NCBI GenBank assembly: GCA_964016885.1
Contig: OZ024745.1
Span: 4,960,001-5,024,000, forward strand
DNA length: 64,000 nt
DNA from: Eledone cirrhosa
Lineage: Eukaryota
Direction: 5' to 3'
This document shows positions 1,751-64,000 of this stretch, one piece after another; the first letter of the stretch is position 1; each line of letters opens with the position of its first letter. A program made the position numbers and the translations under genes. The notes below the pieces were generated by a model. It did no database searches, was not told where the DNA came from, and worked only from the letters and a program-made list of their open reading frames with translations.

Positions 1751-1850
1751 ATCTTGAATCGTAAAAATGCAGAAATTGAAGAACTAAAAAAAAATTTCTC
1801 TGAGAAAAGAAATGAACTTGAAGAAAGTACATTTAAATTAGAAAATGAAG
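1751..1850 (+). CDS. CEP112: Internal coding exon (100 bp, phase 0 to phase 1) of a coiled-coil protein, probably centrosomal protein CEP112/CCDC46
   Basis: Acceptor catttttttcaattttgcag-like T-rich tract ending at 1750, donor GAAG|gtgtgt at 1851, and an open frame ILNRKNAEIEELKKNFSEKRNELEESTFKLENE. It aligns without gaps to my recollection of vertebrate CEP112 (ILERKNNEIEELKTLYRSKQHETEETIRKLEKK-V). The exon call is stronger than the gene identity, which needs BLAST confirmation. Confidence 0.65.
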
Positions 1851-2025
1851 GTGTGTATAGAATGTATAAATATTTTAATACAGATTGAAGTGTGACTGCT
1901 GTTTTAAATCCGATTTACATCCAGTATATTTTATTGTTGTCGTAATATTGTGATTGATGTTTGTCATGTTGCTTTTCATGTCTATTTTCCATACTTGCAT
2001 GGGTTAAAGGGGTTGTTTTGTTAAC

Positions 2026-2583
2026 AGTGGAGGATGGTGCTCTGAGAGCATGGTTAGAATAAGGTTAGAATGGAAGAAGTTTAAGGAATAACTACCTCTG
2101 TTGACAACAAAAAGTTTCTTCTTTCGAATGAAAGGACAGCTGTATGTTACCTGTGTGTGAAGTGCTGCATGGCTCTAAAACATGGGTAGTGACTGCAGAG
2201 GTAATGTACAGACTGGAGAGAAATGAAGCAAGCATGCTTTGATGGATGTGCAATGTTAATATAAGAGAAAGTCAGAGTTTGGATGATCTGAGAGAAAAAT
2301 TGGGTTTAAGAGAAATCAGAAGTAGTGTACAAAAGGTAAGACTGCATTGGTATGGTCATGTGATGTGCATGGTGATTGCTAGGTGAAGAAGTGCCAAGTA
2401 ATCCCAGTGGAAGGAAGCTGCAGCAGAGGAAGGCTAAGAAAGACCTGAGTAGAGGTAGTGGGACAGGATCTCAACTCACAGTGGAGAGGATGAAGGGTTA
2501 TGGTGTGTGGAGAGATGTGTGGAAAAGCCCCATGGAAACCCATGGAAAAATGTTTTTAAAACAATGTTGAGGATGATGATGAG
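2026..2583 (+). mobile_element. 5'-truncated, degenerate non-LTR retrotransposon (RTE-clade LINE) 3' end
   Basis: Interrupted translation SGGWCSESMVRIRLEWKKFKE*LPLLTTK..RMKGQLYVTCV*SA / RLERNEASML*WMCNV..LREKLGLREIRSSVQKVRLHWYGHVM resembles the post-RT C-terminal region of RTE elements (RLRWxGHV motif). It ends in a short GATGATGATGAG tail typical of RTE simple-repeat tails. Multiple stops and frameshifts. Confidence 0.8.
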
Positions 2584-2644
2584 AATAGACAGACACGTCT
2601 TTATCTTACTTATACAATATATTTTGACATGGTTTTTATGGCAA

Positions 2645-2832
2645 CCACTTTATGGCGTATACCAGGTTTGTTTTCTCATAGCACCACCACTATCACCTGG
2701 CAGGGTGGACTGGGTGCTTTTTTGTAGCTCCAGCATTACCACTTTACACTGTGGAATGGATACATTTTATCATGGTACAACTACTTGACAGAGTGGGCTG
2801 AGTGCATTTTATCTTGGCACCAGCACTACCAC
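2645..2832. repeat. Degenerate tandem repeat, ~4 units of ~42-49 bp (approx. CACTTTACAGAGTGGACTGGGTGCWTTTTAT..GCACCAGCACTAC)
   Basis: Units start near 2645, 2694, 2740 and 2782 and share CACTT.ACA..GTGG..TG.GTGC.TTTT...GC.CCAGCA.TAC elements by eye. Possibly SINE-derived (inference). Confidence 0.55.
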
Positions 2833-5800
2833 CTTCCAAATACATGTATGGAACAGTGGTAGTCAATCAAATACTTGAACATAACTCAGAAATGTAGAAA
2901 CTTGGATGTTTTCATCTGATTTGGTCTAGGACTATACCACACACTCCAACATAGGTACCTTTATATAGTGTAGGACTATACCACACACTCCATCATAGGT
3001 ACCTTTATATAGTGTAGGACTATACCACACACTCCATCATAGGTACCTTTATATAGTGTAGGACTATACCACACACTCCATCATAGGTACCTTTATATAG
3101 TGTAGGACTATACCACACACTCCATCATAAGTACCTTTATATAGTGTAGGACTATACCACACACTCCATCATAGGTACCTTTATATAGTGTAGGACTATA
3201 CCACACACTCCATAATAGGTAACTTCATCTAGTCTGGGACTATACCACACACTCCATAATAGGTGCCTTCATCTAGTGTAGGACTATACCACACACTCCA
3301 TCATAGGTACCTTCATCTAGTCTGGGACTATACCACACACTCCATAATAGGTACCTTCATCTAGTCTGGGACTATACCACACACTCCATAATAGGTACCT
3401 TCATCTAGTCTAGGACTATACCACACACTCCATCATAGGTACCTTTATATAGTGTAGGACTATACCACACACTCCATCATAGGTAGCTTCATCTAGTCTA
3501 GGACTATACCACACACTCCATCATAGGTACCTTCATCTAGTGTAGGACTATACCACACACTCCATCATAGGTACCTTCATCTAGTCTGGGACTATACCAC
3601 ACACTCCATCATAGGTACCTTCATCTAGTGTAGGACTATACCACACACTCCATAATAGGTACCTTTATCTAGTGTAGGACTATACCACACACTCCATCAT
3701 AGGTAGCTTCATCTAGTGTAGGTCTATACCACACACTCCATCATGGGTACCTTCATCTAGTCTAGGACTATACCACACACTCCATCATAGGTACCTTCAT
3801 CTAGTGTAGGACTATACCACACACTCCATCATAGGTACCTTCATCTAGTGTAGGACTATACCACACACTCCATAATAGGTACCTTTATCTAGTGTAGGAC
3901 TATACCACACACTCCATCAGAGGTACCTTCATCTAGTGTAGGACTATACCACACACTCCATAATAGGTACCTTTATCTAGTGTAGGACTATACCACACAC
4001 TCCATCATAGGAACCTTCATCTAGTCTGGTACTATACCACACACTCCATCATAGGTACCTTTATATAGTGTAGGACTATACCACACACTCCATCATAGGT
4101 ACCTTTATATAGTGTAGGACTATACTACACACTCCATCATAGGTACCTTTATATAGTGTAGGACTATACCACACACTCCATCATAGGTACCTTCATCTAG
4201 TCTAGGACTATACCACACACTCCATCATAGGTACCTTTATATAGTGTAGGACTATACCACACACTCCGTCATAGGTACCTTTATATAGTGTAGGACTATA
4301 CCACACACTCCATCATAGGTACCTTTATATAGTGTAGGACTATACCACACACTCCATCATAGGTACCTTCATCTAGTGTAGGACTATACCACACACTCCA
4401 TCATAGGTACCTTTATTTAGTGTAGGACTATACCACACACTCCATCATAGGTACCTTCATCTAGTCTGGGACTATACCACACACTCCATCATAGGTACCT
4501 TCATCTACTCTAGGACTATACCACACACTCCATCATAGGTACCTTTATATAGTGTAGGACTATACCACACACTCCATCATAGGTACCTTTATATAGTGTA
4601 GGACTATACCACACACTCCATCATAGGTACCTTTATATAGTGTAGGACTATACCACACACTCCATCATAGGTACCTTCATCTAGTCTGGGACTATACCAC
4701 ACACTACATCATAGGTACCTTTATATAGTGTAGGACTATACCACACACTCCATCATAGGTACCTTTATATAGTGTAGGACTATACCACACACTCCATCAT
4801 AGGTACCTTCATCTAGTGTAGGACTATACCACACACTCCATCATAGGTACCTTCATCTAGTCTGGGACTATACCACACACTCCATCATAGGTACCTTTAT
4901 TTAGTGTAGGACTATACCACACACTCCATCATAGGTACCTTCATCTAGTCTGGGACTATACCACACACTCCATCATAGGTACCTTCATCTACTCTAGGAC
5001 TATACCACACACTCCATCATAGGTACCTTTATATAGTGTAGGACTATACCACACACTCCATCATAGGTACCTTTATATAGTGTAGGACTATACCACAAAC
5101 TCCATCATAGGTACCTTTATATAGTGTAGGACTATACCAAACACTCCATCATAGGTACCTTCATCTAGTGTAGGACTATACCACACACTCCATCATAAGT
5201 ACCTTCATCTAGTGTAGGACTATACCACACACTCCATCATAGGTACCTTTATATAGTGTAGGACTATACCACACACTCCATCATAGGTACCTTCATCTAG
5301 TGTAGGACTATACCATACATTCCATCATAGGTACCTTTATCTAGTGTAGGACTATACCACACACTCCACCATGGCTACCTTTATCTAGTGTAGGACTATA
5401 CCACACACTCCATCATGGGTACCTTCATTTAGTCTAGGACTATACCACACACTCCATCATAGGTACCTTCATCTAGTCTGGGACTATACCACACACTCCA
5501 TCATAGGTACCTTCATCTAGTCAAGGACTATACCACACACTCCATCATAGGTACCTTTATATAGTGTAGGACTATACCACACACTCCATCATAGGTACCT
5601 TTATATAGTGTAGGACTATACCACAAACTCCATCATAGGTACCTTTATATAGTGTAGGACTATACCAAACACTCCATCATAGGTACCTTCATCTAGTGTA
5701 GGACTATACCACACACTCCATCATAAGTACCTTCATCTAGTGTAGGACTATACCACACACTCCATCATAGGTACCTTCATCTAGTGTAGGACTATACCAC

Positions 5801-8800
5801 ACACTCCATCATAGGTACCTTCATCTAGTCTGGGACTATACCACACACTCCATCATAGGTACCTTCATCTAGTGTAGGACTATACCACACACTCCATAAT
5901 AGGTACCTTTATCTAGTGTAGGACTATACCACACACTCCATCATAGGTACCTTCATCTAGTGTAGGACTATACCACACACTCCATCATGGGTACCTTCAT
6001 CTAGTCTAGGACTATACCACACACTCCATCATAGGTACCTTCATCTAGTGTAGGACTATACCACACACGCCATAATAGGTACCTTCATCTAGTGTAGGAC
6101 TATACCACACACTCCATCATAGGTACCTTCATCTAGTGTAGGACTATACCACACACTCCATCATAGGTACCTTCATCTAGTGTAGGACTATACCACACAC
6201 TCCATAATAGGTACCTTTATCTAGTGTAGGACTATACCACACACTCCATCAGAGGTACCTTCATCTAGTGTAGGACTATACCACACACTCCATAATAGGT
6301 ACCTTTATCTAGTGTAGGACTATACCACACACTCCATCATAGGAACCTTCATCTAGTCTGGTACTATACCACACACTCCATCATAGGTACCTTTATATAG
6401 TGTAGGACTATACCACACACTCCATCATAGGTACCTTTATATAGTGTAGGACTATACCACACACTCCATCATAGGTACCTTCATCTAGTGTAGGACTATA
6501 CCACACACTCCATCATAGGTACCTTCATCTAGTCTAGGACTATACCACACACTCCATCATAGGTACCTTTATATAGTGTAGGACTATACCACACACTCCA
6601 TCATAGGTACCTTCATCTAGTGTAGGACTATACCACACATTCCATCATAGGTACCTTCATCTAGTCTGGGACTATACCACACACTCCATCATGGGTACCT
6701 TTATATAGTGTAGGACTATACCACACACTCCATCATAGGTACCTTCATCTAGTCTGGGACTATACCACACACTACATCATAGGTACCTTTATATAGTGTA
6801 GGACTATACCACACACTCCATCATAGGTACCTTTATATAGTGTAGGACTATACCACACACTCCATCATAGGTACCTTCATCTAGTGTAGGACTATACCAC
6901 ACACTCCATCATAGGTACCTTCATCTAGTCTGGGACTATACCACACACTCCATCATGGTACCTTTATATAGTGTAGGACTATACCACACACTCCATCATA
7001 GGTACCTTCATCTAGTCTGGGACTATACCACACACTACATCATAGGTACCTTTATATAGTGTAGGACTATACCACACACTCCATCATAGGTACCTTTATA
7101 TATTGTAGGACTATACGACACACTCCATCATAGGTACCTTCATCTAGTGTAGGACTATACCACACACTCCATCATAGGTACCTTCATCTAGTCTGGGACT
7201 ATACCACACACTCCATCATAGGTACCTTTATTTAGTGTAGGACTATACCACACACTCCATCATAGGTACCTTCATCTAGTCTGGGACTATACCACACACT
7301 CCATCATAGGTACCTTCATCTAGTCTAGGACTATACCACACACTCCATCATAGGTACCTTTATATAGTGTAGGACTATACCACACACTCCATCATAGGTA
7401 CCTTTATATAGTGTAGGACTATACTACACACTCCATCATAGGTACCTTTATATAGTGTAGGACTATACCAAACACTCCATCATAGGTACCTTCATCTAGT
7501 GTAGGACTATACCACACACTCCATCATAAGTACCTTTATATAGTGTAGGACTATACCACAAACTCCATCATAGGTACCTTTATATAGTGTAGGACTATAC
7601 CAAACACTCCATCATAGGTACCTTCATCTAGTGTAGGACTATACCACACACTCCATCATAAGTACCTTCATCTAGTGTAGGACTATACCACACACTCCAT
7701 CATAGGTACCTTTATATAGTGTAGGACTATACCACACACTCCATCATAGGTACCTTCATCTAGTGTAGGACTATACCATACATTCCATCATAGGTACCTT
7801 TATCTAGTGTAGGACTATACCACACACTCCATCATGGCTACCTTTATCTAGTGTAGGACTATACCACACACTCCATCATGGGTACCTTGATTTAGTCTAG
7901 GACTATACCACACACTCCATCATAGGTACCTTCATTTAGTCTGGGACTACACCACACACTCCATCATAGGTACCTTCATCTAGTCTAGGACTATACCACA
8001 CACTCCATCATAGGTACCTTCATCTAGTGTAGGACTATACAACACACTCCATCATAGGTACCTTCATCTAGTCTGGGACTATACCACACACGCCATCATA
8101 GGTACCTTCATCTAGTGTAGGACTATACCACACACTCCATCATAAGTACCTTCATCTAGTGTAGGACTATACCACACACTCCATCATAGGTACCTTTATA
8201 TAGTGTAGGATTATACTACACACTCCATCATAGGTACCTTCATCTAGTGTAGGACTATACCATACACTCCATCATAGGTACCTTTATCTAGTGTAGGACT
8301 ATACCACACACTCCATCATGGCTACCTTTATCTAGTGTAGGACTATACCACACACTCCATCATGGGTACCTTTATATAGTGTAGGACTATACCACACACT
8401 CCATCATAGGTAACTTTATATAGTGTAGGACTATACCACACACTCCATCATAGGTACCTTCATCTAGTGTAGGACTATACCACACACTCCATCATATGTA
8501 CCTTTATATAGTGTAGGAGTATACCACACACTCCATCATAGGTACCTTCATCTAGTCTGGGACTATACCACACACTCCATCATAGGTACCTTCATTTAGT
8601 CTGGGACTACACCACACACTCCATCATAGGTACCTTCATCTAGTCTAGGACTATACCACACACTCCATCATAGGTACCTTCATCTAGTGTAGGACTATAC
8701 CACACACTCCATCATAGGTACCTTCATCTAGTGTAGGACTATACCACACACTCCATCATAGGTACCTTCATCTAGTGTAGGACTATACCACACACTCCAT

Positions 8801-10949
8801 CATAGGTACCTTTATATAGTGTAGGACTATACCACACACTCCATCATAGGTACCTTCATCTAGTCTGGGACTATACCACACACTACATCATAGGTACCTT
8901 TATATAGTGTAGGACTATACCACACACTCCATCATAGGTACCTTTATATAGTGTAGGACTATACGACACACTCCATCATAGGTACCTTCATCTAGTGTAG
9001 GACTATACCACACACTCCATCATAGGTACCTTCATCTAGTCTGGGACTATACCACACACTCCATCATAGGTACCTTTATTTAGTGTAGGACTATACCACA
9101 CACTCCATCATAGGTACCTTCATCTAGTCTGGGACTATACCACACACTCCATCATAGGTACCTTCATCTAGTCTAGGACTATACCACACACTCCATCATA
9201 GGTACCTTTATATAGTGTAGGACTATACCACACACTCCATCATAGGTACCTTTATATAGTGTAGGACTATACTACACACTCCATCATAGGTACCTTTATA
9301 TAGTGTAGGACTATACCAAACACTCCATCATAGGTACCTTCATCTAGTGTAGGACTATACCACACACTCCATCATAAGTACCTTTATATAGTGTAGGACT
9401 ATACCACAAACTCCATCATAGGTACCTTTATATAGTGTAGGACTATACCAAACACTCCATCATAGGTACCTTCATCTAGTGTAGGACTATACCACACACT
9501 CCATCATAAGTACCTTCATCTAGTGTAGGACTATACCACACACTCCATCATAGGTACCTTCATCTAGTGTAGGACTATACCACACACTCCATCATAGGCA
9601 CCTTCATCTAGTCTGGGACTATACCACACACTCCATCATAGGTACCTTCATCTAGTGTAGGACTATACCACACACTCCATAATAGGTACCTTTATCTAGT
9701 GTAGGACTATACCACACACTCCATCATAGGTACCTTCATCTAGTGTAGGACTATACCACACACTCCATCATGGGTACCTTCATCTAGTCTAGGACTATAC
9801 CACACACTCCATCATAGGTACCTTCATCTAGTGTAGGACTATACCACACACGCCATAATAGGTACCTTCATCTAGTGTAGGACTATACCACACACTCCAT
9901 CATAGGTACCTTCATCTAGTGTAGGACTATACCACACACTCCATCATAGGTACCTTCATCTAGTGTAGGACTATACCACACACTCCATAATAGGTACCTT
10001 TATCTAGTGTAGGACTATACCACACACTCCATCAGAGGTACCTTCATCTAGTGTAGGACTATACCACACACTCCATAATAGGTACCTTTATCTAGTGTAG
10101 GACTATACCACACACTCCATCATAGGAATCTTCATCTAGTCTGGTACTATACCACACACTCCATCATAGGTACCTTTATATAGTGTAGGACTATACCACA
10201 CACTCCATCATAGGTACCTTTATATAGTGTAGGACTATACCACACACTCCATCATAGGTACCTTTATATAGTGTAGGACTATACCACACACTCCATCATA
10301 GGTACCTTCATCTAGTCTAGGACTATACCACACTCCATCATAGGTACCTTTATATAGTGTAGGACTATACCACACACTCCATCATAGGTACCTTTATATA
10401 GTGTAGGACTATACCACACACTCCATCATAGGTACCTTCATCTAGTGTAGGACTATACCACACACTCCATCATAGGTACCTTCATCTAGTCTAGGACTAT
10501 ACCACACACTCCATCATAGGTACCTTTATATAGTGTAGGACTATACCACACACTCCATCATAGGTACCTTCATCTAGTGTAGGACTATACCACACATTCC
10601 ATCATAGGTACCTTCATCTAGTCTGGGACTATACCACACACTCCATCATGGGTACCTTTATATAGTGTAGGACTATACCACACACTCCATCATAGGTACC
10701 TTCATCTAGTCTGGGACTATACCACACACTACATCATAGGTACCTTTATATAGTGTAGGACTATACCACACACTCCATCATAGGTACCTTTATATAGTGT
10801 AGGACTATACCACACACTCCATCATAGGTACCTTCATCTAGTGTAGGACTATACCACACACTCCATCATAGGTACCTTCATCTAGTCTTCGGACTATACC
10901 ACACACTCCATCATGGTACCTTTATATAGTGTAGGACTATACCACACAC

Positions 10950-13900
10950 TCCATCATAGGTACCTTCATCTAGTCTGGGACTATACCACACACTACATCA
11001 TAGGTACCTTTATATAGTGTAGGACTATACCACACACTCCATCATAGGTACCTTTATATAGTGTAGGACTATACGACACACTCCATCATAGGTACCTTCA
11101 TCTAGTGTAGGACTATACCACACACTCCATCATAGGTACCTTCATCTAGTCTGGGACTATACCACACACTCCATCATAGGTACCTTTATTTAGTGTAGGA
11201 CTATACCACACACTCCATCATAGGTACCTTCATCTAGTCTGGGACTATACCACACACTCCATCATAGGTACCTTCATCTAGTCTAGGACTATACCACACA
11301 CTCCATCATAGGTACCTTTATATAGTGTAGGACTATACCACACACTCCATCATAGGTACCTTTATATAGTGTAGGACTATACTACACACTCCATCATAGG
11401 TACCTTTATATAGTGTAGGACTATACCAAACACTCCATCATAGGTACCTTCATCTAGTGTAGGACTATACCACACACTCCATCATAAGTACCTTTATATA
11501 GTGTAGGACTATACCACAAACTCCATCATAGGTACCTTTATATAGTGTAGGACTATACCAAACACTCCATCATAGGTACCTTCATCTAGTGTAGGACTAT
11601 ACCACACACTCCATCATAAGTACCTTCATCTAGTGTAGGACTATACCACACACTCCATCATAGGTACCTTTATATAGTGTAGGACTATACCACACACTCC
11701 ATCATAGGTACCTTCATCTAGTGTAGGACTATACCATACATTCCATCATAGGTACCTTTATCTAGTGTAGGACTATACCACACACTCCATCATGGCTACC
11801 TTTATCTAGTGTAGGACTATACCACACACTCCATCATGGGTACCTTGATTTAGTCTAGGACTATACCACACACTCCATCATAGGTACCTTCATTTAGTCT
11901 GGGACTACACCACACACTCCATCATAGGTACCTTCATCTAGTCTAGGACTATACCACACACTCCATCATAGGTACCTTCATCTAGTGTAGGACTATACAA
12001 CACACTCCATCATAGGTACCTTCATCTAGTCTGGGACTATACCACACACGCCATCATAGGTACCTTCATCTAGTGTAGGACTATACCACACACTCCATCA
12101 TAAGTACCTTCATCTAGTGTAGGACTATACCACACACTCCATCATAGGTACCTTTATATAGTGTAGGATTATACTACACACTCCATCATAGGTACCTTCA
12201 TCTAGTGTAGGACTATACCATACACTCCATCATAGGTACCTTTATCTAGTGTAGGACTATACCACACACTCCATCATGGCTACCTTTATCTAGTGTAGGA
12301 CTATACCACACACTCCATCATGGGTACCTTTATATAGTGTAGGACTATACCACACACTCCATCATAGGTAACTTTATATAGTGTAGGACTATACCACACA
12401 CTCCATCATAGGTACCTTCATCTAGTGTAGGACTATACCACACACTCCATCATATGTACCTTTATATAGTGTAGGAGTATACCACACACTCCATCATAGG
12501 TACCTTCATCTAGTCTGGGACTATACCACACACTCCATCATAGGTACCTTCATTTAGTCTGGGACTACACCACACACTCCATCATAGGTACCTTCATCTA
12601 GTCTAGGACTATACCACACACTCCATCATAGGTACCTTCATCTAGTGTAGGACTATACCACACACTCCATCATAGGTACCTTCATCTAGTGTAGGACTAT
12701 ACCACACACTCCATCATAGGTACCTTCATCTAGTGTAGGACTATACCACACACTCCATCATAGGTACCTTTATATAGTGTAGGACTATACCACACACTCC
12801 ATCATAGGTACCTTCATCTAGTCTGGGACTATACCACACACTACATCATAGGTACCTTTATATAGTGTAGGACTATACCACACACTCCATCATAGGTACC
12901 TTTATATAGTGTAGGACTATACGACACACTCCATCATAGGTACCTTCATCTAGTGTAGGACTATACCACACACTCCATCATAGGTACCTTCATCTAGTCT
13001 GGGACTATACCACACACTCCATCATAGGTACCTTTATTTAGTGTAGGACTATACCACACACTCCATCATAGGTACCTTCATCTAGTCTGGGACTATACCA
13101 CACACTCCATCATAGGTACCTTCATCTAGTCTAGGACTATACCACACACTCCATCATAGGTACCTTTATATAGTGTAGGACTATACCACACACTCCATCA
13201 TAGGTACCTTTATATAGTGTAGGACTATACTACACACTCCATCATAGGTACCTTTATATAGTGTAGGACTATACCAAACACTCCATCATAGGTACCTTCA
13301 TCTAGTGTAGGACTATACCACACACTCCATCATAAGTACCTTTATATAGTGTAGGACTATACCACAAACTCCATCATAGGTACCTTTATATAGTGTAGGA
13401 CTATACCAAACACTCCATCATAGGTACCTTCATCTAGTGTAGGACTATACCACACACTCCATCATAAGTACCTTCATCTAGTGTAGGACTATACCACACA
13501 CTCCATCATAGGTACCTTTATATAGTGTAGGACTATACCACACACTCCATCATAGGTACCTTCATCTAGTGTAGGACTATACCATACATTCCATCATAGG
13601 TAACTTTATCTAGTGTAGGACTATACCACACACTCCATCATGGCTACCTTTATCTAGTGTAGGACTATACCACACACTCCATCATGGGTACCTTCATTTA
13701 GTCTAGGACTATACCACACACTCCATCATAGGTACCTTCATTTAGTCTGGGACTACACCACACACTCCATCATAGGTACCTTCATCTAGTCTAGGACTAT
13801 ACCACACACTCCATCATAGGTACCTTCATCTAGTGTAGGACTATACAACACACTCCATCATAGGTACCTTCATCTAGTCTGGGACTATACCACACACGCC

Positions 13901-14600
13901 ATCATAGGTACCTTCATCTAGTGTAGGACTATACCACACACTCCATCATAAGTACCTTCATCTAGTGTAGGACTATACCACACACTCCATCATAGGTACC
14001 TTTATATAGTGTAGGATTATACTACACACTCCATCATAGGTACCTTCATCTAGTGTAGGACTATACCATACACTCCATCATAGGTACCTTTATCTAGTGT
14101 AGGACTATACCACACACTCCATCATGGCTACCTTTATCTAGTGTAGGACTATACCACACACTCCATCATGGGTACCTTTATATAGTGTAGGACTATACCA
14201 CACACTCCATCATAGGTAACTTTATATAGTGTAGGACTATACCACACACTCCATCATAGGTACCTTCATCTAGTGTAGGACTATACCACACACTCCATCA
14301 TATGTACCTTTATATAGTGTAGGAGTATACCACACACTCCATCATAGGTACCTTCATCTAGTCTGGGACTATACCACACACTCCATCATAGGTACCTTCA
14401 TTTAGTCTGGGACTACACCACACACTCCATCATAGGTACCTTCATCTAGTCTAGGACTATACCACACACTCCATCATAGGTACCTTCATCTAGTGTAGGA
14501 CTATACCACACACTCCATCATAGGTACCTTCATCTAGTGTAGGACTATACCACACACTCCATCATAGGTACCTTCATCTAGTGTAGGACTATACCACACA
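10950..14600. repeat. Higher-order tandem duplication, 42 monomers (1,848 bp) x2; boundaries approximate
   Basis: The rare variant CATATGTACC..AGGAGTATA lies at 12453 and 14301 (1848 = 42x44), with the same order of other rare variants (ATACGACAC, CACGCCATC, GGATTATACTAC). Confidence 0.85.
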
Positions 14601-50600: not shown

Positions 50601-53600
50601 CTCCATAATAGGTACCTTCATCTAGTGTAGGACTATACCACACACTCCATCATAGGTACCTTCATCTAGTGTAGGACTATACCACACACTCCATAATAGG
50701 TACCTTCATCTAGTGTAGGACTATACCACACACTCCATAATAGGTACCTTTATATAGTGTAGGACTATACCACACACTCCATCATAGGTACCTTCATCTA
50801 GTCTAGGACTATACCACACACTCCATAATAGGTACCTTCATCTAGTCTAGGACTATACCACACACTCCATCATAGGTACCTTCATCTAGTCTGGGACTAT
50901 ACCACACACTCCATCATAGGTACCTTCATCTTGTGTAGGACTATACCCCACACTCCATCATAGGTACCTTCATCTAGTGTAGGACTATACCACACACTCC
51001 ATCATAGGTACCTTCATCTAGTGTAGGAGTATACCACACACTCCATCATAGGTACCTTCATCTAGTCTGGGACTATACCACACACTCCATCATAGGTACC
51101 TTCATCTAGTGTAGGACTATACCACGCACTCCATCATAGGTACCTTCATCTAGTGAAGGACTATACCACACACTACATCATAGGTACCTTCATCTAGTCT
51201 GGGACTATACCACACACTCCATCATAGGTACCTTCATCTAGTGTAGGACTATACCCCACACTCCATCATAGGTACCTTCATCTAGTGTAGAACTATACCA
51301 CACACTACATCATAGGTACCTTCATCTAGTGTAGGACTATACCACACACTCCATCATAGGTACCTTCATCTAGTCTGGGACTATACCACACACTCCATCA
51401 TAGGTACCTTCATCTAGTGTAGGACTATACCACACACTCCATCATGGGTAACTTTATATAGTGTAGGACTATACCACACACTCCATCATAGGTACCTTCA
51501 TCTAGTGTAGGACTGTACCGCACACTCCATCATAGGTACCTTCATCTAGTGTAGGACTATACCACACACTCCATCATAGCTAACTTTATTTAGTGTAGGA
51601 CTATACCACACACTCCATCATAGGTACCTTTATATAGTGTTGGACTCTACCAGACACTCCATTATAGGTACCTTCATCTAGTCTAGGACTATACCACACA
51701 CTCCATCATAGGTACCTTCATCTAGTCTGGGACTATACCACACACTACATCATAGGTACCTTTATATAGTGTAGTACTATACCAGACACTCCATCATAGG
51801 TACCTTCATCTAGTGTAGCACTATACCACACACTCCATCATAGGTACCTTCATCTAGTGTAGGACTATACCACACACTCCATCATAGGTACCTTCATCTA
51901 GTGTAGGACTATACCACACACTACATCATAGGTACCTTTATATAGTGTAGTACTATACCAGACACTCCATCATAGGTACCTTCATCTAGTCTAGGACTAT
52001 ACCACACACTCCATCATAGGTACCTTCATCTAGTCTGGGACTATACCACACACTCCATCATAGGTACCTCCATCTAGTGTAGGACTATAGCCCACACTCC
52101 ATCATAGGTACCTTCATCTAGTCTAGGACTATACCACACACTCCATAATAGGTACCTTTATATAGTGTAGGACTATACCACACACCCCATAATAGGTACC
52201 TTCATCTAGTGTATGACTATACCACACACTCCATCATAGGTACCTTCATCTAGTCTAGGACTATACCACACACTCCATAATAGGTACCTTTATGTAGTGT
52301 AGGACTATACCACACACTCCATAATAGGTACCTTTATATAGTGTAGGACTATACCACACACCCCATAATAGGTACCTTCATCTAGTGTATGACTATACCA
52401 CACACTCCATCATAGGTACCTTCATCTAGTCTAGGACTATACCACACACTCCATAATAGGTACCTTTATATAGTGTAGGACTATACCACACACCCCATAA
52501 TAGGTACCTTCATCTAGTGTAGGACTATACCACACACTCTATCATAGGTACCTTTATATAGTGTACGACTATACCACTCACTCCATCATAGGTACCTTCA
52601 TCTAGTGTAGGACTATACCACACACTACATCATAGGTACCTTTATATAGTGTAGGACTATACCACACACTCCATCATAGGTACCTTCATCTAGTCTAGGA
52701 CTATACCACACACTCCATCATAGGTACCTTCCTCTAGTCTGGGACTATACCAAACACTCCATCATAGGTACCTTCATATAGTCGGGGACTATACCACACA
52801 CTCCGTCATAGGTACCTTCATCTAGTGTAGGACTATACCACACACTCCATCATAGGTACCTTCATCTAGTCTGGGACTATACCACACACTCCATCATAGG
52901 TACCTTCATCTAGTCTAGGACTATACCACACACTCCATCATAGGTACCTTCATCTAGTCTAGGACTATACCACACACTCCATAATAGGTACCTTTATACA
53001 GTGTAGGACTATACCACACACTCCATCATAGGTACCTTCATCTAGTGTGGGACTATACCACACACTCCATAATAAGTACCTTTATATAGTGTAGGACTAT
53101 ACCACACACTCCATCATAGGTACCTTCATCTAGTCTGGGACTATACCACACACTCCATATTAGGTACCTTTATATAGCGTAGGACTATACCACACACTCC
53201 ATCATAGGTACCTTAATCTATTGTAGGACTATACCACACACTCCATAATAGGTACCTTCATCTAGTGTAGGACCATACCACACACTCCATCATAGGTACC
53301 TTTATATAGTGTAGGACTATACCACACACTCCATCATGGGTACCTTTATATAGTGTAGGACTATACCACACACTCCATAATAGGTACCTTCATCTAGTGT
53401 AGGACTATACCACACACTCCATAATAGGTACCTTCATCTAGTGTAGGACTATACCACACACTCCATCATAGGTACCTTCATCTAGTCTGGGACTATACCA
53501 CACACTCCATCATAGGTACCTTTATATAGTGTAGGACTATACCACACACTCCATCATAGGTACCTTCATCTAGTCTAGGACTATACCACACACTCCATAA

Positions 53601-56600
53601 TAGGTACCTTTATATAGTGTAGGACTATACCACACACTCCATAATAGGTACCTTCATCTAGTGTAGGACTATACCACACACTCCATCATAGGTACCTTCA
53701 TCTAGTGTAGGACTATACCACACACTCCATCATAGGTACCTTCATCTAGTGTAGGACTATACCACACACTCCATAATAGGTACCTTCATCTAGTGTAGGA
53801 CTATACCACACACTCCATCATAAGTACCTTCATCTAGTGTAGGACTATACCACACACTCCATAATAGGTACCTTCATCTAGTGTAGGACTATACCACACA
53901 CTCCATAATAGGTCCCTTTATATAGTGTAGGACTATACCACACACTCCATCATAGGTACCTTCATCTAGTCTAGGACTATACCACACACTCCATCATAGG
54001 TACCTTCATCTAGTGTAGGACTATACGACACACTCCATCATAGGTACCTTCATCTAGTGTAGGACTATACCACACACTCCATAATAGGTACCTTCATCTA
54101 GTGTAGGACTATACCACACACTCCATCATAGGTACCTTCATCTAGTCTAGGACTATACCACACGCTCCATCATAGGTACCTTCATCTAGTGTAGGACTAT
54201 ACCACACACTCCATAATAGGTACCTTCATCTAGTGTAGGACTATACCACACACTCCATCATAGGTACCTTCATCTAGTGTAGGACTATACCACACACTCC
54301 ATAATAGGTACCTTCATCTAGTGTAGGACTATACCACACACTCCATAATAGGTACCTTTATATAGTGTAGGACTATACCACACACTCCATCATAGGTACC
54401 TTCATCTAGTCTAGGACTATACCACACACTCCATAATAGGTACCTTCATCTAGTGTAGGACTATACCACACACTCCATCATAGGTACCTTCATCTAATCT
54501 AGGACTATACCACACACTCCATCATAGGTACCTTCATCTAGTGTAGGACTATACCACACACTCCATCATAGGTACCTTCATCTAGTCTAGGACTATACCA
54601 CACACTACATCATAGGTACCTTCATCTAGTGTAGGACTATACCACACACTACATCATAGGAAACCTTTATATAGTGTAGGACTATACCACACACTCCATC
54701 ATAGGTACCTTCATCTAGTCTAGGACTATACCACACACTCCATCATAGGTACCTTCATCTAGTCTGGGACTATACCACACACTCCATCATAGGTACCTTC
54801 ATCTAGTCGGGGACTATACCACACACTCCATCATAGGTACCTTCATCTAGTGTAGGACTATACCACACACTCCATCATAGGTACCTTCATCTAGTCTGGG
54901 ACTATACCACACACTCCATCATAGGTACCTTCATCTAGTCTAGGACTATACCACACACTCCATCATAGGTACCTTCATCTAGTCTGGGACGACTATACCA
55001 CACACTCCATCATAGGTACCTTCATCTAGTCTAGGACTATACCACACACTCCATAATAGGTACCTTTATACAGTGTAGGACTATACCACACACTCCATCA
55101 TAGGTACCTTCATCTAGTGTCGGACTATACCACACACTCCATAATAGGTACCTTTATATAGTGTAGGACTATACCACACACTCCATCATAGGTACCTTCA
55201 TCTAGTCTGGGACTATACCACACACTGCATAATAGGTACCTTTATATATCGTAGGACTATACCACACACTCCATCATAGGTACCTTAATCTAGTGTAGGA
55301 CTATACCACACACTCCATAATAGGTACCTTCATCTAGTGTAGGACTATACCACACACTCCATCATAGGTACCTTTATATAGTGTAGGACTATACCACACA
55401 CTCCATCATAGGTACCTTCATCTAGTCTAGGACTATACCACACACTCCATAATAGGTACCTTTATATAGTGTAGGACTATACCACACACTCCATAATAGG
55501 TACCTTCATCTAGTGTAGGACTATACCACACACTCCATCATAGGTACCTTCATCTAGTGTAGGACTATACCACACACTCCATCATAGGTACCTTCATCTA
55601 GTGTAGGACTATACCACACACTCCATAATAGGTACCTTCATCTAGTGTAGGACTATACCACACACTCCATCATAAGTACGTTCATCTAGTGTAGGACTAT
55701 ACCACACACTCCATAATAGGTACCTTCATCTAGTGTAGGACTATACCACACACTCCATAATAGGTCCCTTTATATAGTGTAGGACTATACCACACACTCC
55801 ATCATAGGTACCTTCATCTAGTCTAGGACTATACCACACACTCCATCATAGGTACCTTCATCTAGTGTAGGACTATACCACACACTACATCATAGGTACC
55901 TTCATCTAGTGTAGGACTATACCACACACTCCATAATAGGTACCTTCATCTAGTGTAGGACTATACCACACACTCCATCATAAGTACATTCATCTAGTGT
56001 AGGACTATACCACACACTCCATAATAGGTACCTTCATCTAGTGTAGGACTATACCACACACTCCATAATAGGTCCCTTTATATAGTGTAGGACTATACCA
56101 CACACTCCATCATAGGTACCTTCATCTAGTCTAGGACTATACCACACACTCCATAATAGGTACCTTCATCTAGTCTGGGACTATACCACACACTCCATCA
56201 TAGGTACCTTCATCTAGTCTAGGACTATACCACACACTCCATCATAGGTACCTTCATCTAGTGTAGGACTATACCACACACTCCATCATAGGTACCTTCA
56301 TCTAGTGTAGGACTATACCACACACTCCATAATAGGTACCTTCATCTAGTGTAGGACTATACCACACACTCCATCATAGGTACCTTCATCTAGTGTAGGA
56401 CTATACCACACACTCCATAATAGGTACCTTCATCTAGTGTAGGACTATACCACACACTCCATAATAGGTACCTTTATATAGTGTAGGACTATACCACACA
56501 CTCCATCATAGGTACCTTCATCTAGTCTAGGACTATACCACACACTCCATAATAGGTACCTTCATCTAGTCTAGGACTATACCACACACTCCATCATAGG

Positions 56601-59600
56601 TACCTTCATCTAGTCTGGGACTATACCACACACTCCATCATAGGTACCTTCATCTTGTGTAGGACTATACCCCACACTCCATCATAGGTACCTTCATCTA
56701 GTGTAGGACTATACCACACACTCCATCATAGGTACCTTCATCTAGTGTAGGAGTATACCACACACTCCATCATAGGTACCTTCATCTAGTCTGGGACTAT
56801 ACCACACACTCCATCATAGGTACCTTCATCTAGTGTAGGACTATACCACGCACTCCATCATAGGTACCTTCATCTAGTGAAGGACTATACCACACACTAC
56901 ATCATAGGTACCTTCATCTAGTCTGGGACTATACCACACACTCCATCATAGGTACCTTCATCTAGTGTAGGACTATACCCCACACTCCATCATAGGTACC
57001 TTCATCTAGTGTAGAACTATACCACACACTACATCATAGGTACCTTCATCTAGTGTAGGACTATACCACACACTCCATCATAGGTACCTTCATCTAGTCT
57101 GGGACTATACCACACACTCCATCATAGGTACCTTCATCTAGTGTAGGACTATACCACACACTCCATCATGGGTAACTTTATATAGTGTAGGACTATACCA
57201 CACACTCCATCATAGGTACCTTCATCTAGTGTAGGACTGTACCGCACACTCCATCATAGGTACCTTCATCTAGTGTAGGACTATACCACACACTCCATCA
57301 TAGCTAACTTTATTTAGTGTAGGACTATACCACACACTCCATCATAGGTACCTTTATATAGTGTTGGACTCTACCAGACACTCCATTATAGGTACCTTCA
57401 TCTAGTCTAGGACTATACCACACACTCCATCATAGGTACCTTCATCTAGTCTGGGACTATACCACACACTACATCATAGGTACCTTTATATAGTGTAGTA
57501 CTATACCAGACACTCCATCATAGGTACCTTCATCTAGTGTAGCACTATACCACACACTCCATCATAGGTACCTTCATCTAGTGTAGGACTATACCACACA
57601 CTCCATCATAGGTACCTTCATCTAGTGTAGGACTATACCACACACTACATCATAGGTACCTTTATATAGTGTAGTACTATACCAGACACTCCATCATAGG
57701 TACCTTCATCTAGTCTAGGACTATACCACACACTCCATCATAGGTACCTTCATCTAGTCTGGGACTATACCACACACTCCATCATAGGTACCTCCATCTA
57801 GTGTAGGACTATAGCCCACACTCCATCATAGGTACCTTCATCTAGTCTAGGACTATACCACACACTCCATAATAGGTACCTTTATATAGTGTAGGACTAT
57901 ACCACACACCCCATAATAGGTACCTTCATCTAGTGTATGACTATACCACACACTCCATCATAGGTACCTTCATCTAGTCTAGGACTATACCACACACTCC
58001 ATAATAGGTACCTTTATGTAGTGTAGGACTATACCACACACTCCATAATAGGTACCTTTATATAGTGTAGGACTATACCACACACCCCATAATAGGTACC
58101 TTCATCTAGTGTATGACTATACCACACACTCCATCATAGGTACCTTCATCTAGTCTAGGACTATACCACACACTCCATAATAGGTACCTTTATATAGTGT
58201 AGGACTATACCACACACCCCATAATAGGTACCTTCATCTAGTGTAGGACTATACCACACACTCTATCATAGGTACCTTTATATAGTGTACGACTATACCA
58301 CTCACTCCATCATAGGTACCTTCATCTAGTGTAGGACTATACCACACACTACATCATAGGTACCTTTATATAGTGTAGGACTATACCACACACTCCATCA
58401 TAGGTACCTTCATCTAGTCTAGGACTATACCACACACTCCATCATAGGTACCTTCCTCTAGTCTGGGACTATACCACACACTCCATCATAGGTACCTTCA
58501 TATAGTCGGGGACTATACCACACACTCCATCATAGGTATCTTCATCTAGTGTAGGACTATACCACACACTCCATCATAGGTACCTTCATCTAGTCTGGGA
58601 CTATACCACACACTCCATCATAGGTACCTTCATCTAGTCTAGGACTATACCACACACTCCATCATAGGTACCTTCATCTAGTCTAGGACTATACCACACA
58701 CTCCATAATAGGTACCTTTATACAGTGTAGGACTATACCACACACTCCATCATAGGTACCTTCATCTAGTGTGGGACTATACCACACACTCCATAATAAG
58801 TACCTTTATATAGTGTAGGACTATACCACACACTCCATCATAGGTACCTTCATCTAGTCTGGGACTATACCACACACTCCATATTAGGTACCTTTATATA
58901 GCGTAGGACTATACCACACACTCCATCATAGGTACCTTAATCTATTGTAGGACTATACCACACACTCCATAATAGGTACCTTCATCTAGTGTAGGACCAT
59001 ACCACACACTCCATCATAGGTACCTTTATATAGTGTAGGACTATACCACACACTCCATCATGGGTACCTTTATATAGTGTAGGACTATACCACACACTCC
59101 ATAATAGGTACCTTCATCTAGTGTAGGACTATACCACACACTCCATAATAGGTACCTTCATCTAGTGTAGGACTATACCACACACTCCATCATAGGTACC
59201 TTCATCTAGTCTGGGACTATACCACACACTCCATCATAGGTACCTTTATATAGTGTAGGACTATACCACACACTCCATCATAGGTACCTTCATCTAGTCT
59301 AGGACTATACCACACACTCCATAATAGGTACCTTTATATAGTGTAGGACTATACCACACACTCCATAATAGGTACCTTCATCTAGTGTAGGACTATACCA
59401 CACACTCCATCATAGGTACCTTCATCTAGTGTAGGACTATACCACACACTCCATCATAGGTACCTTCATCTAGTGTAGGACTATACCACACACTCCATAA
59501 TAGGTACCTTCATCTAGTGTAGGACTATACCACACACTCCATCATAAGTACCTTCATCTAGTGTAGGACTATACCACACACTCCATAATAGGTACCTTCA

Positions 59601-61350
59601 TCTAGTGTAGGACTATACCACACACTCCATAATAGGTCCCTTTATATAGTGTAGGACTATACCACACACTCCATCATAGGTACCTTCATCTAGTCTAGGA
59701 CTATACCACACACTCCATCATAGGTACCTTCATCTAGTGTAGGACTATACCACACACTCCATCATAGGTACCTTCATCTAGTGTAGGACTATACCACACA
59801 CTCCATAATAGGTACCTTCATCTAGTGTAGGACTATACCACACACTCCATCATAGGTACCTTCATCTAGTGTAGGACTATACCACACACTCCATAATAGG
59901 TACCTTCATCTAGTGTAGGACTATACCACACACTCCATAATAGGTACCTTTATATAGTGTAGGACTATACCACACACTCCATCATAGGTACCTTCATCTA
60001 GTCTAGGACTATACCACACACTCCATAATAGGTACCTTCATCTAGTGTAGGACTATACCACACACTCCATCATAGGTACCTTCATCTAATCTAGGACTAT
60101 ACCACACACTCCATCATAGGTACCTTTATATAGTGTAGGACTATACCACACACTCCATCATAGGTACCTTCATCTAGTCTAGGACTATACCACACACTAC
60201 ATCATAGGTACCTTCATCTAGTGTAGGACTATACCACACACTACATCATAGGAAACCTTTATATAGTGTAGGACTATACCACACACTCCATCATAGGTAC
60301 CTTCATCTAGTCTAGGACTATACCACACACTCCATCATAGGTACCTTCATCTAGTCTGGGACTATACCACACACTCCATCATAGGTACCTTCATCTAGTC
60401 GGGGACTATACCACACACTCCATCATAGGTACCTTCATCTAGTGTAGGACTATACCACACACTCCATCATAGGTACCTTCATCTAGTCTGGGACTATACC
60501 ACACACTCCATCATAGGTACCTTCATCTAGTCTAGGACTATACCACACACTCCATCATAGGTACCTTCATCTAGTCTGGGACGACTATACCACACACTCC
60601 ATCATAGGTACCTTCATCTAGTCTAGGACTATACCACACACTCCATAATAGGTACCTTTATACAGTGTAGGACTATACCACACACTCCATCATAGGTACC
60701 TTCATCTAGTGTCGGACTATACCACACACTCCATAATAGGTACCTTTATATAGTGTAGGACTATACCACACACTCCATCATAGGTACCTTCATCTAGTCT
60801 GGGACTATACCACACACTGCATAATAGGTACCTTTATATATCGTAGGACTATACCACACACTCCATCATAGGTACCTTAATCTAGTGTAGGACTATACCA
60901 CACACTCCATAATAGGTACCTTCATCTAGTGTAGGACTATACCACACACTCCATCATAGGTACCTTTATATAGTGTAGGACTATACCACACACTCCATCA
61001 TAGGTACCTTCATCTAGTCTAGGACTATACCACACACTCCATAATAGGTACCTTTATATAGTGTAGGACTATACCACACACTCCATAATAGGTACCTTCA
61101 TCTAGTGTAGGACTATACCACACACTCCATCACAGGTACCTTCATCTAGTGTAGGACTATACCACACACTCCATCATAGGTACCTTCATCTAGTGTAGGA
61201 CTATACCACACACTCCATAATAGGTACCTTCATCTAGTGTAGGACTATACCACACACTCCATCATAAGTACGTTCATCTAGTGTAGGACTATACCACACA
61301 CTCCATAATAGGTACCTTCATCTAGTGTAGGACTATACCACACACTCCAT
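44700..61350. repeat. Higher-order repeat of ~120-130 monomers (5.3-5.7 kb), three tandem copies with partial related copies on both sides
   Basis: CTTGTGTAGG at 45294, 50930, 56654 and 61938 (spacings 5636, 5724, 5284 = 128, 130, 120 monomers +4 bp). GGAAACC insertion at 49023, 54659 and 60251. Confidence 0.9.
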
Positions 61351-64000
61351 AATAGGTCCCTTTATATAGTGTAGGACTATACCACACACTCCATCATAGG
61401 TACCTTCATCTAGTCTAGGACTATACCACACACTCCATAATAGGTACCTTCATCTAGTCTGGGACTATACCACACACTCCATCATAGGTACCTTCATCTA
61501 GTCTAGAACTATACCACACACTCCATCATAGGTACCTTCATCTAGTGTAGGACTATACCACACACTCCATCATAGGTACCTTCATCTAGTGTAGGACTAT
61601 ACCACACACTCCATAATAGGTACCTTCATCTAGTGTAGGACTATACCACACACTCCATCATAGGTACCTTCATCTAGTGTAGGACTATACCACACACTCC
61701 ATAATAGGTACCTTCATCTAGTGTAGGACTATACCACACACTCCATAATAGGTACCTTTATATAGTGTAGGACTATACCACACACTCCATCATAGGTACC
61801 TTCATCTAGTCTAGGACTATACCACACACTCCATAATAGGTACCTTCATCTAGTCTAGGACTATACCATACACTCCATCATAGGTACCTTCATCTAGTCT
61901 GGGACTATACCACACACTCCATCATAGGTACCTTCATCTTGTGTAGGACTATACCCCACACTCCATCATAGGTACCTTCATCTAGTGTAGGACTATACCA
62001 CACACTACATCATAGGTACCTTCATCTAGTGTAGGAGTATACCACACACTCCATCATAGGTACCTTCATCTAGTCTGGGACTATACCACACACTCCATCA
62101 TAGGTACCTTCATCTAGTGTAGGACTATACCACGCACTCCATCATAGGTACCTTCATCTAGTGTAGGACTATACCACACACTACATCATAGGTACCTTCA
62201 TCTAGTCTGGGACTATACCACACACTCCATCATAGGTACCTTCATCTAGTGTAGGACTATACCCCACACTCCATCATAGGTACCTTCATCTAGTGTAGAA
62301 CTATACCACACACTACATCATAGGTACCTTCATCTAGTGTAGGACTATACCACACACTCCATCATAGGTACCTTCATCTAGTCTGGGACTATACCACACA
62401 CTCCATCATAGGTACCTTCATCTAGTGTAGGACTATACCACACACTCCATCATGGGTAACTTTATATAGTGTAGGACTATACCACACACTCCATCATAGG
62501 TACCTTCATCTAGTGTAGGACTGTACCGCACACTCCATCATAGGTACCTTCATCTAGTGTAGGACTATACCACACACTCCATCATAGCTAACTTTATTTA
62601 GTGTAGGACTATACCACACACTCCATCATAGGTACCTTTATATAGTGTTGGACTCTACCAGACACTCCATTATAGGTACCTTCATCTAGTCTAGGACTAT
62701 ACCACACACTCCATCATAGGTACCTTCATCTAGTCTGGGACTATACCACACACTACATCATAGGTACCTTTATATAGTGTAGTACTATACCAGACACTCC
62801 ATCATAGGTACCTTCATCTAGTGTAGCACTATACCACACACTCCATAATAGGTACCTTTATATAGTGTAGGACTATACCACACACCCCATAATAGGTACC
62901 TTCATCTAGTGTATGACTATACCACACACTCCATCATAGGTACCTTCATCTAGTCTAGGACTATACCACACACTCCATAATAGGTACCTTTATGTAGTGT
63001 AGGACTATACCACACACTCCATAATAGGTACCTTCATCTAGTGTAGGACTATACCACACACTCCATCATAGGTACCTTTATATAGTGTACGACTATACCA
63101 CTCACTCCATCATAGGTACCTTCATCTAGTGTAGGACTATACCACACACTACATCATAGGTACCTTTATATAGTGTAGGACTATACCACACACTCCATCA
63201 TAGGTACCTTCATCTAGTCTAGGACTATACCACACACTCCATCATAGGTACCTTCCTCTAGTCTGGGACTATACCACACACTCCATCATAGGTACCTTCA
63301 TCTAGTCGGGGACTATACAACACACTCCATCATAGGTACCTTCATCTAGTGTAGGACTATACCACACACTCCATCATAGGTACCTTCATCTAGTCTGGGA
63401 CTATACCACACACTCCATCATAGGTACCTTCATCTAGTCTAGGACTATACCACACACTCCATCATAGGTACCTTCATCTAGTCTGGGACGACTATACCAC
63501 ACACTCCATCATAGGTACCTTCATCTAGTCTAGGACTATACCACACACTCCATAATAGGTACCTTTATACAGTGTAGGACTATACCACACACTCCATCAT
63601 AGGTACCTTCATCTAGTGTGGGACTATACCACACACTCCATAATAGGTACCTTTATATAGTGTAGGACTATACCACACACTCCATCATAGGTACCTTCAT
63701 CTAGTCTGGGACTATACCACACACTCCATATTAGGTACCTTTATATAGCGTAGGACTATACCACACACTCCATCATAGGTACCTTAATCTATTGTAGGAC
63801 TATACCACACACTCCATAATAGGTACCTTCATCTAGTGTAGGACTATACCACACACTCCATCATAGGTACCTTTATATAGTGTAGGACTATACCACACAC
63901 TCCATCATGGGTACCTTTATATAGTGTAGGACTATACCACACACTCCATAATAGGTACCTTCATCTAGTGTAGGACTATACCACACACTCCATAATAGGT

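What the first reader, a model, noticed from the sequence alone, without database searches (positions are those of the whole stretch)
1751..64000. Satellite-filled giant intron (>62 kb) in a probable CEP112 centrosomal/spermiogenesis gene
Seen: a clean exon with an open frame and a phase-1 donor at 1851, no plausible next exon before 2924, then 61 kb of pure satellite with stops in every frame. Known: CEP112 is a centrosomal coiled-coil protein linked to spermiogenesis in mammals, and the Drosophila Y fertility genes (kl-3, kl-5) carry satellite-filled gigantic introns that need dedicated RNA-processing factors. Inference: if the gene is intact, Pol II must transcribe over 1,390 monomers, making this a possible independent case of satellite intron gigantism and a source of abundant repeat RNA.
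Basis: partly seen in the sequence, partly recalled or inferred. Interest (0 to 1): 0.75.

Follow-up and report, generated by a model that had tools for sequence, protein, structure and literature searches.

The report
Private satellites swell octopod CEP112 introns
In an octopus-type genome, the intact centrosome gene CEP112 has an 81,500-base intron that is 94% one 44-base repeat found nowhere else in the assembly, but the whole 7-million-base neighbourhood is equally full of other such repeats, so this is likely tolerated local repeat growth rather than a sperm-specific device like the giant fly Y genes.

Summary
Exon 1751-1850 is coding exon 12 of a 30-exon, 976-codon, stop-free CEP112 model spanning 755 kb (octopod; 64% identical to an Octopus model). 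The next exon lies beyond the array in matching phase. The intron is 81,519 bp, of which 76,968 bp are about 1,748 copies of a 44-mer. All 1,728 genome-wide matches lie in this one gap-free array. Seven introns exceed 50 kb and carry unrelated arrays; 70% of the gene is satellite. That equals the local background: 68% in 25 samples from the first 7 Mb of the contig, against 9% in 35 samples elsewhere. The swelling is therefore regional, not specific to CEP112. The Drosophila Y-loop parallel fails on intron size and repeat type, and testis restriction is untested. The closest match is avian 'intron stuttering', here with far longer arrays. Hairpin enrichment and recursive-splice motifs were tested and not supported. 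Transcription through the array is inferred, since no RNA run was available. This scan has already noted the same pattern in many other genes of this genome, including housekeeping genes. I found no paper describing it in cephalopods.

The parts
1751..1850 (+). CEP112 coding exon 12 of 30 (33 codons plus 1 base; phase 0 in, phase 1 out)
   Evidence: tblastn 68% to P0002 residues 301-337; model
1851..64000 (+). 5' part of CEP112 intron 12 (GT-AG, 81,519 bp in all). It ends beyond the window at C5:5,043,369; the next exon (coding exon 13, 119 nt, phase 1 to 0) is C5:5,043,370-5,043,488 = L003:9370-9488
1851..2926 (+). non-array 5' stretch of the intron (1.08 kb), holding pieces of dispersed repeats
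   Evidence: high summed contig depth at 1958-2016, 2194-2252, 2312-2429 and 2784-2842, about 5-10 on unique parts
2927..64000 (+). single-locus 44-bp tandem array (continues to C5:5,039,894; 76,968 bp, about 1,748 copies), built from kilobase block duplications of 42-130 monomers
203..506 (+). small 20-bp minisatellite (15 copies) in intron 11, unrelated to the 44-mer

Best explanation
The 44-bp array is a single-locus repeat inside intron 12 of an intact CEP112 gene, one of dozens of unrelated arrays in a repeat-choked 7-Mb stretch of this octopod contig; it likely grew in place and is likely transcribed through and spliced out as tolerated filler. Shown: gene structure, privacy of the repeat, regional excess, kilobase block duplications inside the array. 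Inferred steps: (1) a short unique intronic stretch duplicated by slippage or repair; (2) it was amplified by unequal crossing-over or gene conversion that copies blocks of 42-130 monomers; (3) arrays persist where they miss exons and splice sites; (4) ordinary exon-definition splicing removes them, helped by a sense strand without strong splice or poly(A) signals in this array; (5) the cost is a few extra hours of elongation.
For: Intact 30-exon, 976-codon model, 29 of 29 introns GT-AG, one stop at the end. Privacy: 1,081 of 1,081 exact and 1,728 of 1,728 two-mismatch genome-wide matches are accounted for by this array. 96 arrays fall into 83 unrelated families. Region: 16 of 25 10-kb samples at 0-7 Mb of C5 are at least half large array (mean 68%), against 2 of 35 elsewhere (mean 9%), Fisher p=1.4e-6; 15 of the 20 samples drawn after the pattern was suspected meet the mark. 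Gene 70%, flanks 82% of 509 kb. Growth by blocks: exact tandem duplication of 71 monomers (3.1 kb), periodicities of 42, 70, 90, 128 and 130 monomers, and variant frequencies that drift along the array. The sense strand has 0 donors and 0 acceptors scoring 7 or more and 0 AATAAA/ATTAAA in 77 kb, against 1.13, 0.95 and 1.66 per kb in 60 kb of plain introns.
Against: No RNA evidence from this species was obtained here, so splicing across the intron is inferred. Neutrality is not shown. The far end of C5 (6 samples at 124-134.5 Mb) is not array-rich, two interior samples (60 and 65 Mb) are pure satellite, and no telomeric repeat was seen at C5:1-10,000, so 'chromosome end' is not established. Only 3 of 12 samples 2 Mb from the start of other contigs are at least half array (p=0.10 against interior C5). 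Samples are not fully independent: two share one monomer. Clean sense strands are not general: the 43-mer array has 11 poly(A)-type hexamers per kb in sense. No seed copy of the 44-mer was found in the surrounding 1.26 Mb, and no neighbouring gene could be identified, so the flanking arrays may or may not be intronic.
Confidence: 0.75

Rival explanations
1. Y-loop-like programme: CEP112 gained satellite introns because it is a spermiogenesis gene, and slow transcription through them would time or gate its expression in male germ cells with dedicated RNA-binding factors.
For: Mouse Cep112 loss gives male-specific sterility and expression rises in spermiogenesis (PMC11443074 passages). 99.6% of the coding span is non-coding and 7 of 29 introns exceed 50 kb.
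Against: The satellite share equals the regional background and the flanks are richer. The largest intron is 160 kb, against megabases in kl-3 (PMC6508621 Introduction). Fly genes with a largest intron of 50-100 kb did not show the splicing-dependent attenuation of the Y giants (PMC11207136 passages). Octopus has ZZ/ZO sex determination, with no Y (PMC10925132 passages). Unchecked scan notes report the same build in housekeeping genes.
Confidence: 0.08
2. Assembly artefact: the array is mis-joined into the gene or its length is inflated.
For: The three runs that hold this DNA are one sample and may be the source of the assembly, so they are not independent support. Long tandem arrays are a known weak point of assemblies (recalled).
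Against: All 30 exons are collinear with compatible phases and no N. The 3' junction is bridged in 3 of 3 runs with 50-59 letters inside the array. The longest exact internal duplicate is about 3.1 kb, shorter than the 14-kb longest records of these runs. Depth ratios of array to unique sequence are 804-2,172 in 6 readings, the same order as 1,748; the tool warns this is no copy number. No other locus holds the repeat.
Confidence: 0.06
3. The array acts in chromatin or as RNA in its own right, for example as a centromere-like or heterochromatin seed, or as a source of regulatory repeat RNA, and the gene merely tolerates it.
For: It has higher-order block structure and high homogeneity (1.8 differences per 44 nt). 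Satellites are relatively methylated in O. bimaculoides (PMC9476566 passages).
Against: The monomer is private to one site among 83 unrelated families, unlike a shared centromeric family. There is no hairpin excess (z=+1.07 for this monomer).
Confidence: 0.08
4. The AG-GT motif in nearly every monomer is a set of recursive splice points that removes the intron piecewise.
For: 1,557 AG|GT sites lie on the sense strand of the array.
Against: Their acceptor scores are near 0 for the common variants (best 3.5), against a median of about 10.6 for the gene's real acceptors. The common donor scores 3.5, below all 28 real donors used (lowest 4.7). The matrix is small and built from this gene, and the true acceptor of this intron itself scores only 4.7.
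Confidence: 0.03

Closest known systems
Avian intron 'sequence stuttering' on dot chromosomes (Hron et al. 2026, PMC12954441; abstract, Results section 7 part 1, section 8 part 1 and whole Discussion read)
   Same: [quoted passage not shown] Blocks stay inside introns, coding regions stay intact, intergenic DNA is affected too, and the trait belongs to a chromosomal compartment rather than a gene class.
   Different: Here arrays reach 77-190 kb (the worked chicken example is a 1.6-2.9 kb intron), are orderly tandem arrays at about 40% GC rather than in GC-rich genes, and lie in one part of a 135-Mb contig of a mollusc. No exon stuttering was found. Length polymorphism between individuals is untested.
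Drosophila Y-loop fertility genes kl-3 and kl-5 (PMC6508621, abstract and Introduction read; PMC11207136, 6 passages)
   Same: Over 99% of the locus is non-coding, introns are filled by tandem repeats that Pol II would have to transcribe, and the host gene has a sperm role in mammals.
   Different: kl-3 spans at least 4.3 Mb with megabase introns of simple shared satellites that form over 99% of the locus, on a Y chromosome, expressed only in spermatogenesis. Here: 755 kb, introns up to 160 kb, 70% satellite, private 15-56-mers, and no sign of gene-specific excess.
Single-locus intronic VNTRs and macrosatellites such as human CACNA1C intron 3 (name taken from scan notes; paper not read here)
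   Same: A private unit of about 30-50 bp expanded to tens of kilobases inside one intron of an intact gene.
   Different: In human these are rare outliers (recalled); here seven introns of one gene and two thirds of a 7-Mb region are built this way.
CEP112 (centrosomal protein of 112 kDa; DUF4485/PF14846 family)
   Same: Model is 67% identical to P0002, 64% to the O. vulgaris model, 33% to Lingula and 30% to a manatee CEP112 over nearly full length. P0002 carries PF14846 at E=1.3e-21.
   Different: Nothing unusual in the protein. Function in cephalopods is untested.

Membership tests
CEP112 orthologues | N-terminal DUF4485 (PF14846) domain followed by long coiled coil, about 950-1,000 aa | tested here: met
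   P0002 PF14846 E=1.3e-21; the genomic model aligns end to end with it at 67% over 976 aa. The Pfam scan was run on P0002, not on the joined model.
CEP112 orthologues | Best named relatives are CEP112; one locus in the genome | tested here: met
   Of 39 hits of P0002, 35 carry a CEP112/CE112 or DUF4485 name, 3 are unnamed (P0002 itself among them) and 1 is 'unnamed protein product' (hand count). 18 of 18 genome matches lie in one collinear locus (stricter first look, so weak copies may be missed).
Drosophila Y-loop gigantic genes | Over 99% of the locus non-coding | tested here: met
   Coding share 0.39% of 755 kb
Drosophila Y-loop gigantic genes | Megabase introns; satellites form over 99% of the locus | tested here: not met
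   Largest intron 160,084 bp; large arrays are 70% of the span
Drosophila Y-loop gigantic genes | Simple satellites shared across the chromosome, such as (AATAT)n | tested here: not met
   44-mer private to one array; 83 families among 96 arrays
Drosophila Y-loop gigantic genes | Location on a male-limited Y chromosome | tested here: inconclusive
   Sex linkage of C5 was not measured. Octopus orthologues sit on 192-216 Mb contigs. O. bimaculoides is ZZ/ZO with chromosome 17 as Z. That chromosome 17 is much smaller than these contigs is recalled.
Drosophila Y-loop gigantic genes | Expression only in spermatogenesis, lampbrush loops, need for Blanks/Heph-type factors | not testable with these tools
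   No RNA run listed; needs tissue RNA-seq, FISH and genetics
Avian-type intron stuttering | Locally expanded motifs confined to single introns, coding region intact | tested here: met
Avian-type intron stuttering | Concentrated in a chromosomal compartment and also affecting DNA outside the gene | tested here: met
   68% against 9%; flanks 82%
Avian-type intron stuttering | Occasional copying of exon edges into the neighbouring intron | tested here: not met
   blastn of 29 exons against 28 introns: best hit 38.3 bits, 23 nt, reverse strand, non-adjacent intron. The feature is occasional in birds too, so one gene does not decide.
Avian-type intron stuttering | Extensive length variation between individuals | not testable with these tools
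   Only three runs of one sample were listed
Avian-type intron stuttering | GC-rich gene context | tested here: not met
   Array 41-43% GC, flank 36.5%

The most novel reading that the evidence does not exclude
This octopod has megabase domains in which nearly any short intronic stretch can run away into its own 50-190 kb satellite. Ordinary genes there are routinely transcribed through hundreds of kilobases of young, private tandem repeat: intron stuttering at tens of times the avian scale. If array lengths vary between individuals, as in chickens, gene length and time to first mRNA become a large heritable variable, giving a natural test of whether intron gigantism needs a dedicated programme.
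Probability: 0.35. Interest if true: 0.65.

Novelty: new variant of a known kind. Interest (0 to 1): 0.35.

Why it matters
It separates two ideas that the fly Y genes bundle together. Satellite-filled giant introns can arise from where a gene lies, without sign of a sperm-specific programme. A region with dozens of unrelated single-locus arrays, each bracketed by conserved exons, is a good system for dating satellite birth and growth and for asking what long repeat introns cost. For annotation, such introns may split gene models: 4 RefSeq CEP112 models of two Octopus species begin only in exon 13 or 14. As a single locus it is one of many like cases in this genome.

Tried and rejected
(1) Hairpin-driven expansion: by eye many monomers looked palindromic, but against 100 circular dinucleotide shuffles each there was no excess. 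Mean z was +0.04 for 29 arrays of 5 kb or more and -0.20 for 54 shorter ones; the 44-mer itself scored +1.07. (2) Recursive splice points: weak scores. (3) General strand selection against splice or poly(A) signals: no consistent sense depletion over 16 arrays. (4) Seed copy of the 44-mer in 1.26 Mb of surrounding DNA: best hit 14 nt, E=0.3. (5) Expression: no RNA holder listed. The query was mostly intronic, so an RNA run could not easily have qualified; this is no evidence either way. (6) 5' junction of the array: not bridged in the listed contig pieces, with depth 1.65, 2.33 and 0 at 2843-2901; a hole proves nothing. (7) Neighbouring genes: 15 candidate exons, 8 scanned in Pfam with no gene identified. 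The best candidate proved to be part of a dispersed element. (8) A housekeeping control: a CTLH-domain gene at C2:351.7 Mb of 416 Mb has a gap of about 40 kb between domain exons with 0% large array. It is an interior negative, so I have no self-tested housekeeping gene with satellite introns. (9) Single exons alone gave no meaningful Pfam hit. (10) Print searches for this pattern in cephalopods or in CEP112 (listings only) and term searches in PMC13652810 and PMC12682272 (0 occurrences of 'tandem' or 'satellite') found no description. Subscription journals and all supplements were not seen, and genome-paper supplements could hold repeat landscapes that show it. (11) A scan look-up near this place and by protein gave nothing.
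Full report
Observation. The window is G000:C5:4,960,001-5,024,000 of a 3.0-Gb genome; C5 is 134.7 Mb. An exon at 1751-1850 lies between AG and GT and is open for 33 codons plus one base. A 44-bp tandem array runs from 2927 to the window end, 1,387.7 copies at 93% match, with stops in all six frames. Beyond the window it ends at C5:5,039,894: 76,968 bp, 1,748 copies.

The gene. A downstream exon found a 991-aa unnamed protein, P0002, on a 3,378-nt contig; its length suggests a spliced transcript of a relative (inference). P0002 carries DUF4485, and its named relatives are CEP112 from Octopus, other invertebrates and vertebrates. All 18 of its matches in this genome lie in one collinear locus. 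Splice-site refinement gave 30 coding exons at C5:4,722,020-5,477,311 (755 kb), 976 codons, one terminal stop, and 29 of 29 introns GT-AG. One acceptor (exon 11) has a 9-nt alternative. Identity is 67% to P0002, 64% to Octopus models and 30% to a mammalian CEP112, so the animal is likely an octopod. The window exon is coding exon 12. Exon 13 (C5:5,043,370-5,043,488) starts in phase 1 and continues the protein without a gap. Intron 12 is 81,519 bp and 94% array (where it is numbered 11). An acceptor-like site about 40 nt before the ATG suggests a further 5' exon beyond another array; I did not locate it.

Is the assembly right? There is no N in 864 kb. The longest exact duplicate inside the array is 71 monomers, about 3.1 kb, and no stretch over 2.9 kb lacks a unique 200-mer. 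Contigs of three public runs, all one sample and possibly the source, bridge the 3' junction in 3 of 3 runs. None listed bridges the 5' junction, which proves nothing either way. Array-to-unique depth ratios were 804-2,172 in six readings; the tool warns these are not copy numbers, but the order of size agrees. A mis-join is unlikely.

The repeat is private. An exact 31-mer has 1,081 matches genome-wide, all forward, and 1,081 lie in this array. A 25-mer with two mismatches has 1,728 matches and 1,728 lie here. Monomers differ from the consensus at 1.8 of 44 positions. Blocks recur at 42, 70, 90, 128 and 130 monomers, and variant frequencies drift along the array. This fits growth by kilobase block duplication, as by unequal crossing-over or gene conversion (inference from established models of tandem-array evolution). 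No seed copy was found in 1.26 Mb around it.

It is one of many. Seven of 29 introns exceed 50 kb (median 4.6 kb). They hold unrelated arrays, among them a 15-mer and a 30-32-mer (128 kb together), a 51-mer (55 kb), the 44-mer, a 29-mer (83 kb), a 21-mer (116 kb) and a 43-mer (27 kb). Two of the seven are under half array (43% and 24%). Large arrays (1 kb or more, period 10 or more, 80% match or more) make up 70% of the gene and 82% of 509 kb of flanking DNA, including arrays of 80, 86 and 190 kb. Across the DNA sampled up to then, 96 arrays fall into 83 families.

Gene or region? Sixty 10-kb samples of C5 were scored. At 0-7 Mb, 16 of 25 were at least half array (mean 68%); elsewhere 2 of 35 (mean 9%); Fisher p=1.4e-6. 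The 7-Mb limit was set after the first 40 samples; 15 of the 20 later samples met the mark. CEP112 therefore matches its neighbourhood and shows no excess. Limits: two samples share one monomer; the other end of C5 is not array-rich; two interior samples are pure satellite; no telomeric repeat was seen at the contig start. At 2 Mb of 12 other contigs, 3 of 12 samples were fully array (p=0.10 against interior C5). An interior CTLH-domain gene on C2 has a gap of about 40 kb with no large array. I identified no neighbouring gene. That housekeeping genes are built the same way rests on unchecked scan notes (713 notes fit 'satellite intron').

How it likely works. Shown: an intact gene, a private array, block duplications and a regional excess. 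Inferred: local birth, recombination-type amplification, survival where exons and splice sites are spared, and removal by ordinary splicing. The sense strand of this array has no donor or acceptor scoring 7 or more and no AATAAA/ATTAAA in 77 kb, whereas plain introns have about 1-1.7 of each per kb. That would help read-through but is not general across 16 arrays. An AG|GT motif occurs 1,557 times but scores far below real sites. Monomers show no hairpin excess. At 1-4 kb per minute (recalled rate, not measured in cephalopods) the gene would take about 3-13 hours to transcribe, far below the 90 hours described for kl-3. No RNA run was listed, so transcription and splicing are untested here.

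Comparison. Fly kl-3 spans at least 4.3 Mb with megabase introns of simple satellites, on the Y, expressed only in spermatogenesis (PMC6508621, abstract and Introduction). Fly genes whose largest intron is 50-100 kb did not behave like these giants when splicing was disturbed (PMC11207136, passages). Octopus is ZZ/ZO (PMC10925132, passages). The better match is avian intron stuttering: locally expanded motifs confined to introns, intact exons, a chromosomal compartment, and intergenic DNA affected too (PMC12954441, parts of sections 7 and 8 and all of 9; lead from scan notes). It differs in scale, GC content and lineage; exon stuttering was not found and polymorphism is untested. It works like stuttering but is not filed as a member.

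Novelty and verdict. Seven listing searches and term searches in two cephalopod genome papers found no description of this in cephalopods; subscription papers and supplements were not seen. The scan itself has noted the pattern in many other genes of this genome. The feature is real and the gene call is right. The Y-loop reading is not supported, and the regional reading is best at 0.75. Novelty: new variant of a known kind. Interest 0.35.

Noticed in passing
L160:8500-9800 (C5:4,698,500-4,699,800): A palindromic (fold-back) dispersed element carries an exon-like open frame as an inverted pair. There are 44 matches genome-wide at 94-100% identity, and 65 short library proteins match it. The frame resembles the N-terminus of RMND5 from recall only. 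It may be a recently active element with a captured host exon.
   Followed up: partly
CEP112 introns 12 and 13: RefSeq models of O. sinensis (653 aa) and O. bimaculoides (603-631 aa) start only in exon 13 or 14, while the O. vulgaris model (1,040 aa) is whole. This is a weak hint that the same introns are hard to assemble or annotate in other octopods.
   Followed up: partly
C5:5,129,040-5,132,011 and C5:5,459,752-5,461,240: One 56-mer occurs as arrays in two different CEP112 introns in opposite orientation, so not every array is private; it may be carried by a mobile element.
   Followed up: no
C5:5,392,749-5,395,484 and L085: A 400-1,114 bp near-identical tandem unit occurs in CEP112 intron 25 and again at C5:3.5 Mb.
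   Followed up: no
L103, L104 (C5:60 Mb and 65 Mb): Two interior 10-kb samples are pure satellite with different 19- and 20-mers; possible centromere or relic of a chromosome fusion.
   Followed up: no
G000 contigs C1-C4: Four contigs of 379-443 Mb against 135 Mb or less for the others whose length was seen: a strongly fused karyotype or assembly.
   Followed up: no
C5:4,710,001-4,721,913: A 20-mer array of at least 12 kb ends about 107 bp before the CEP112 ATG, upstream of an acceptor-like site, so it probably lies in a 5' intron.
   Followed up: partly
C5:5,337,515-5,364,795: The 43-mer array in intron 25 has 11 AATAAA/ATTAAA hexamers per kb on the sense strand, a possible load of premature poly(A) signals.
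   Followed up: no
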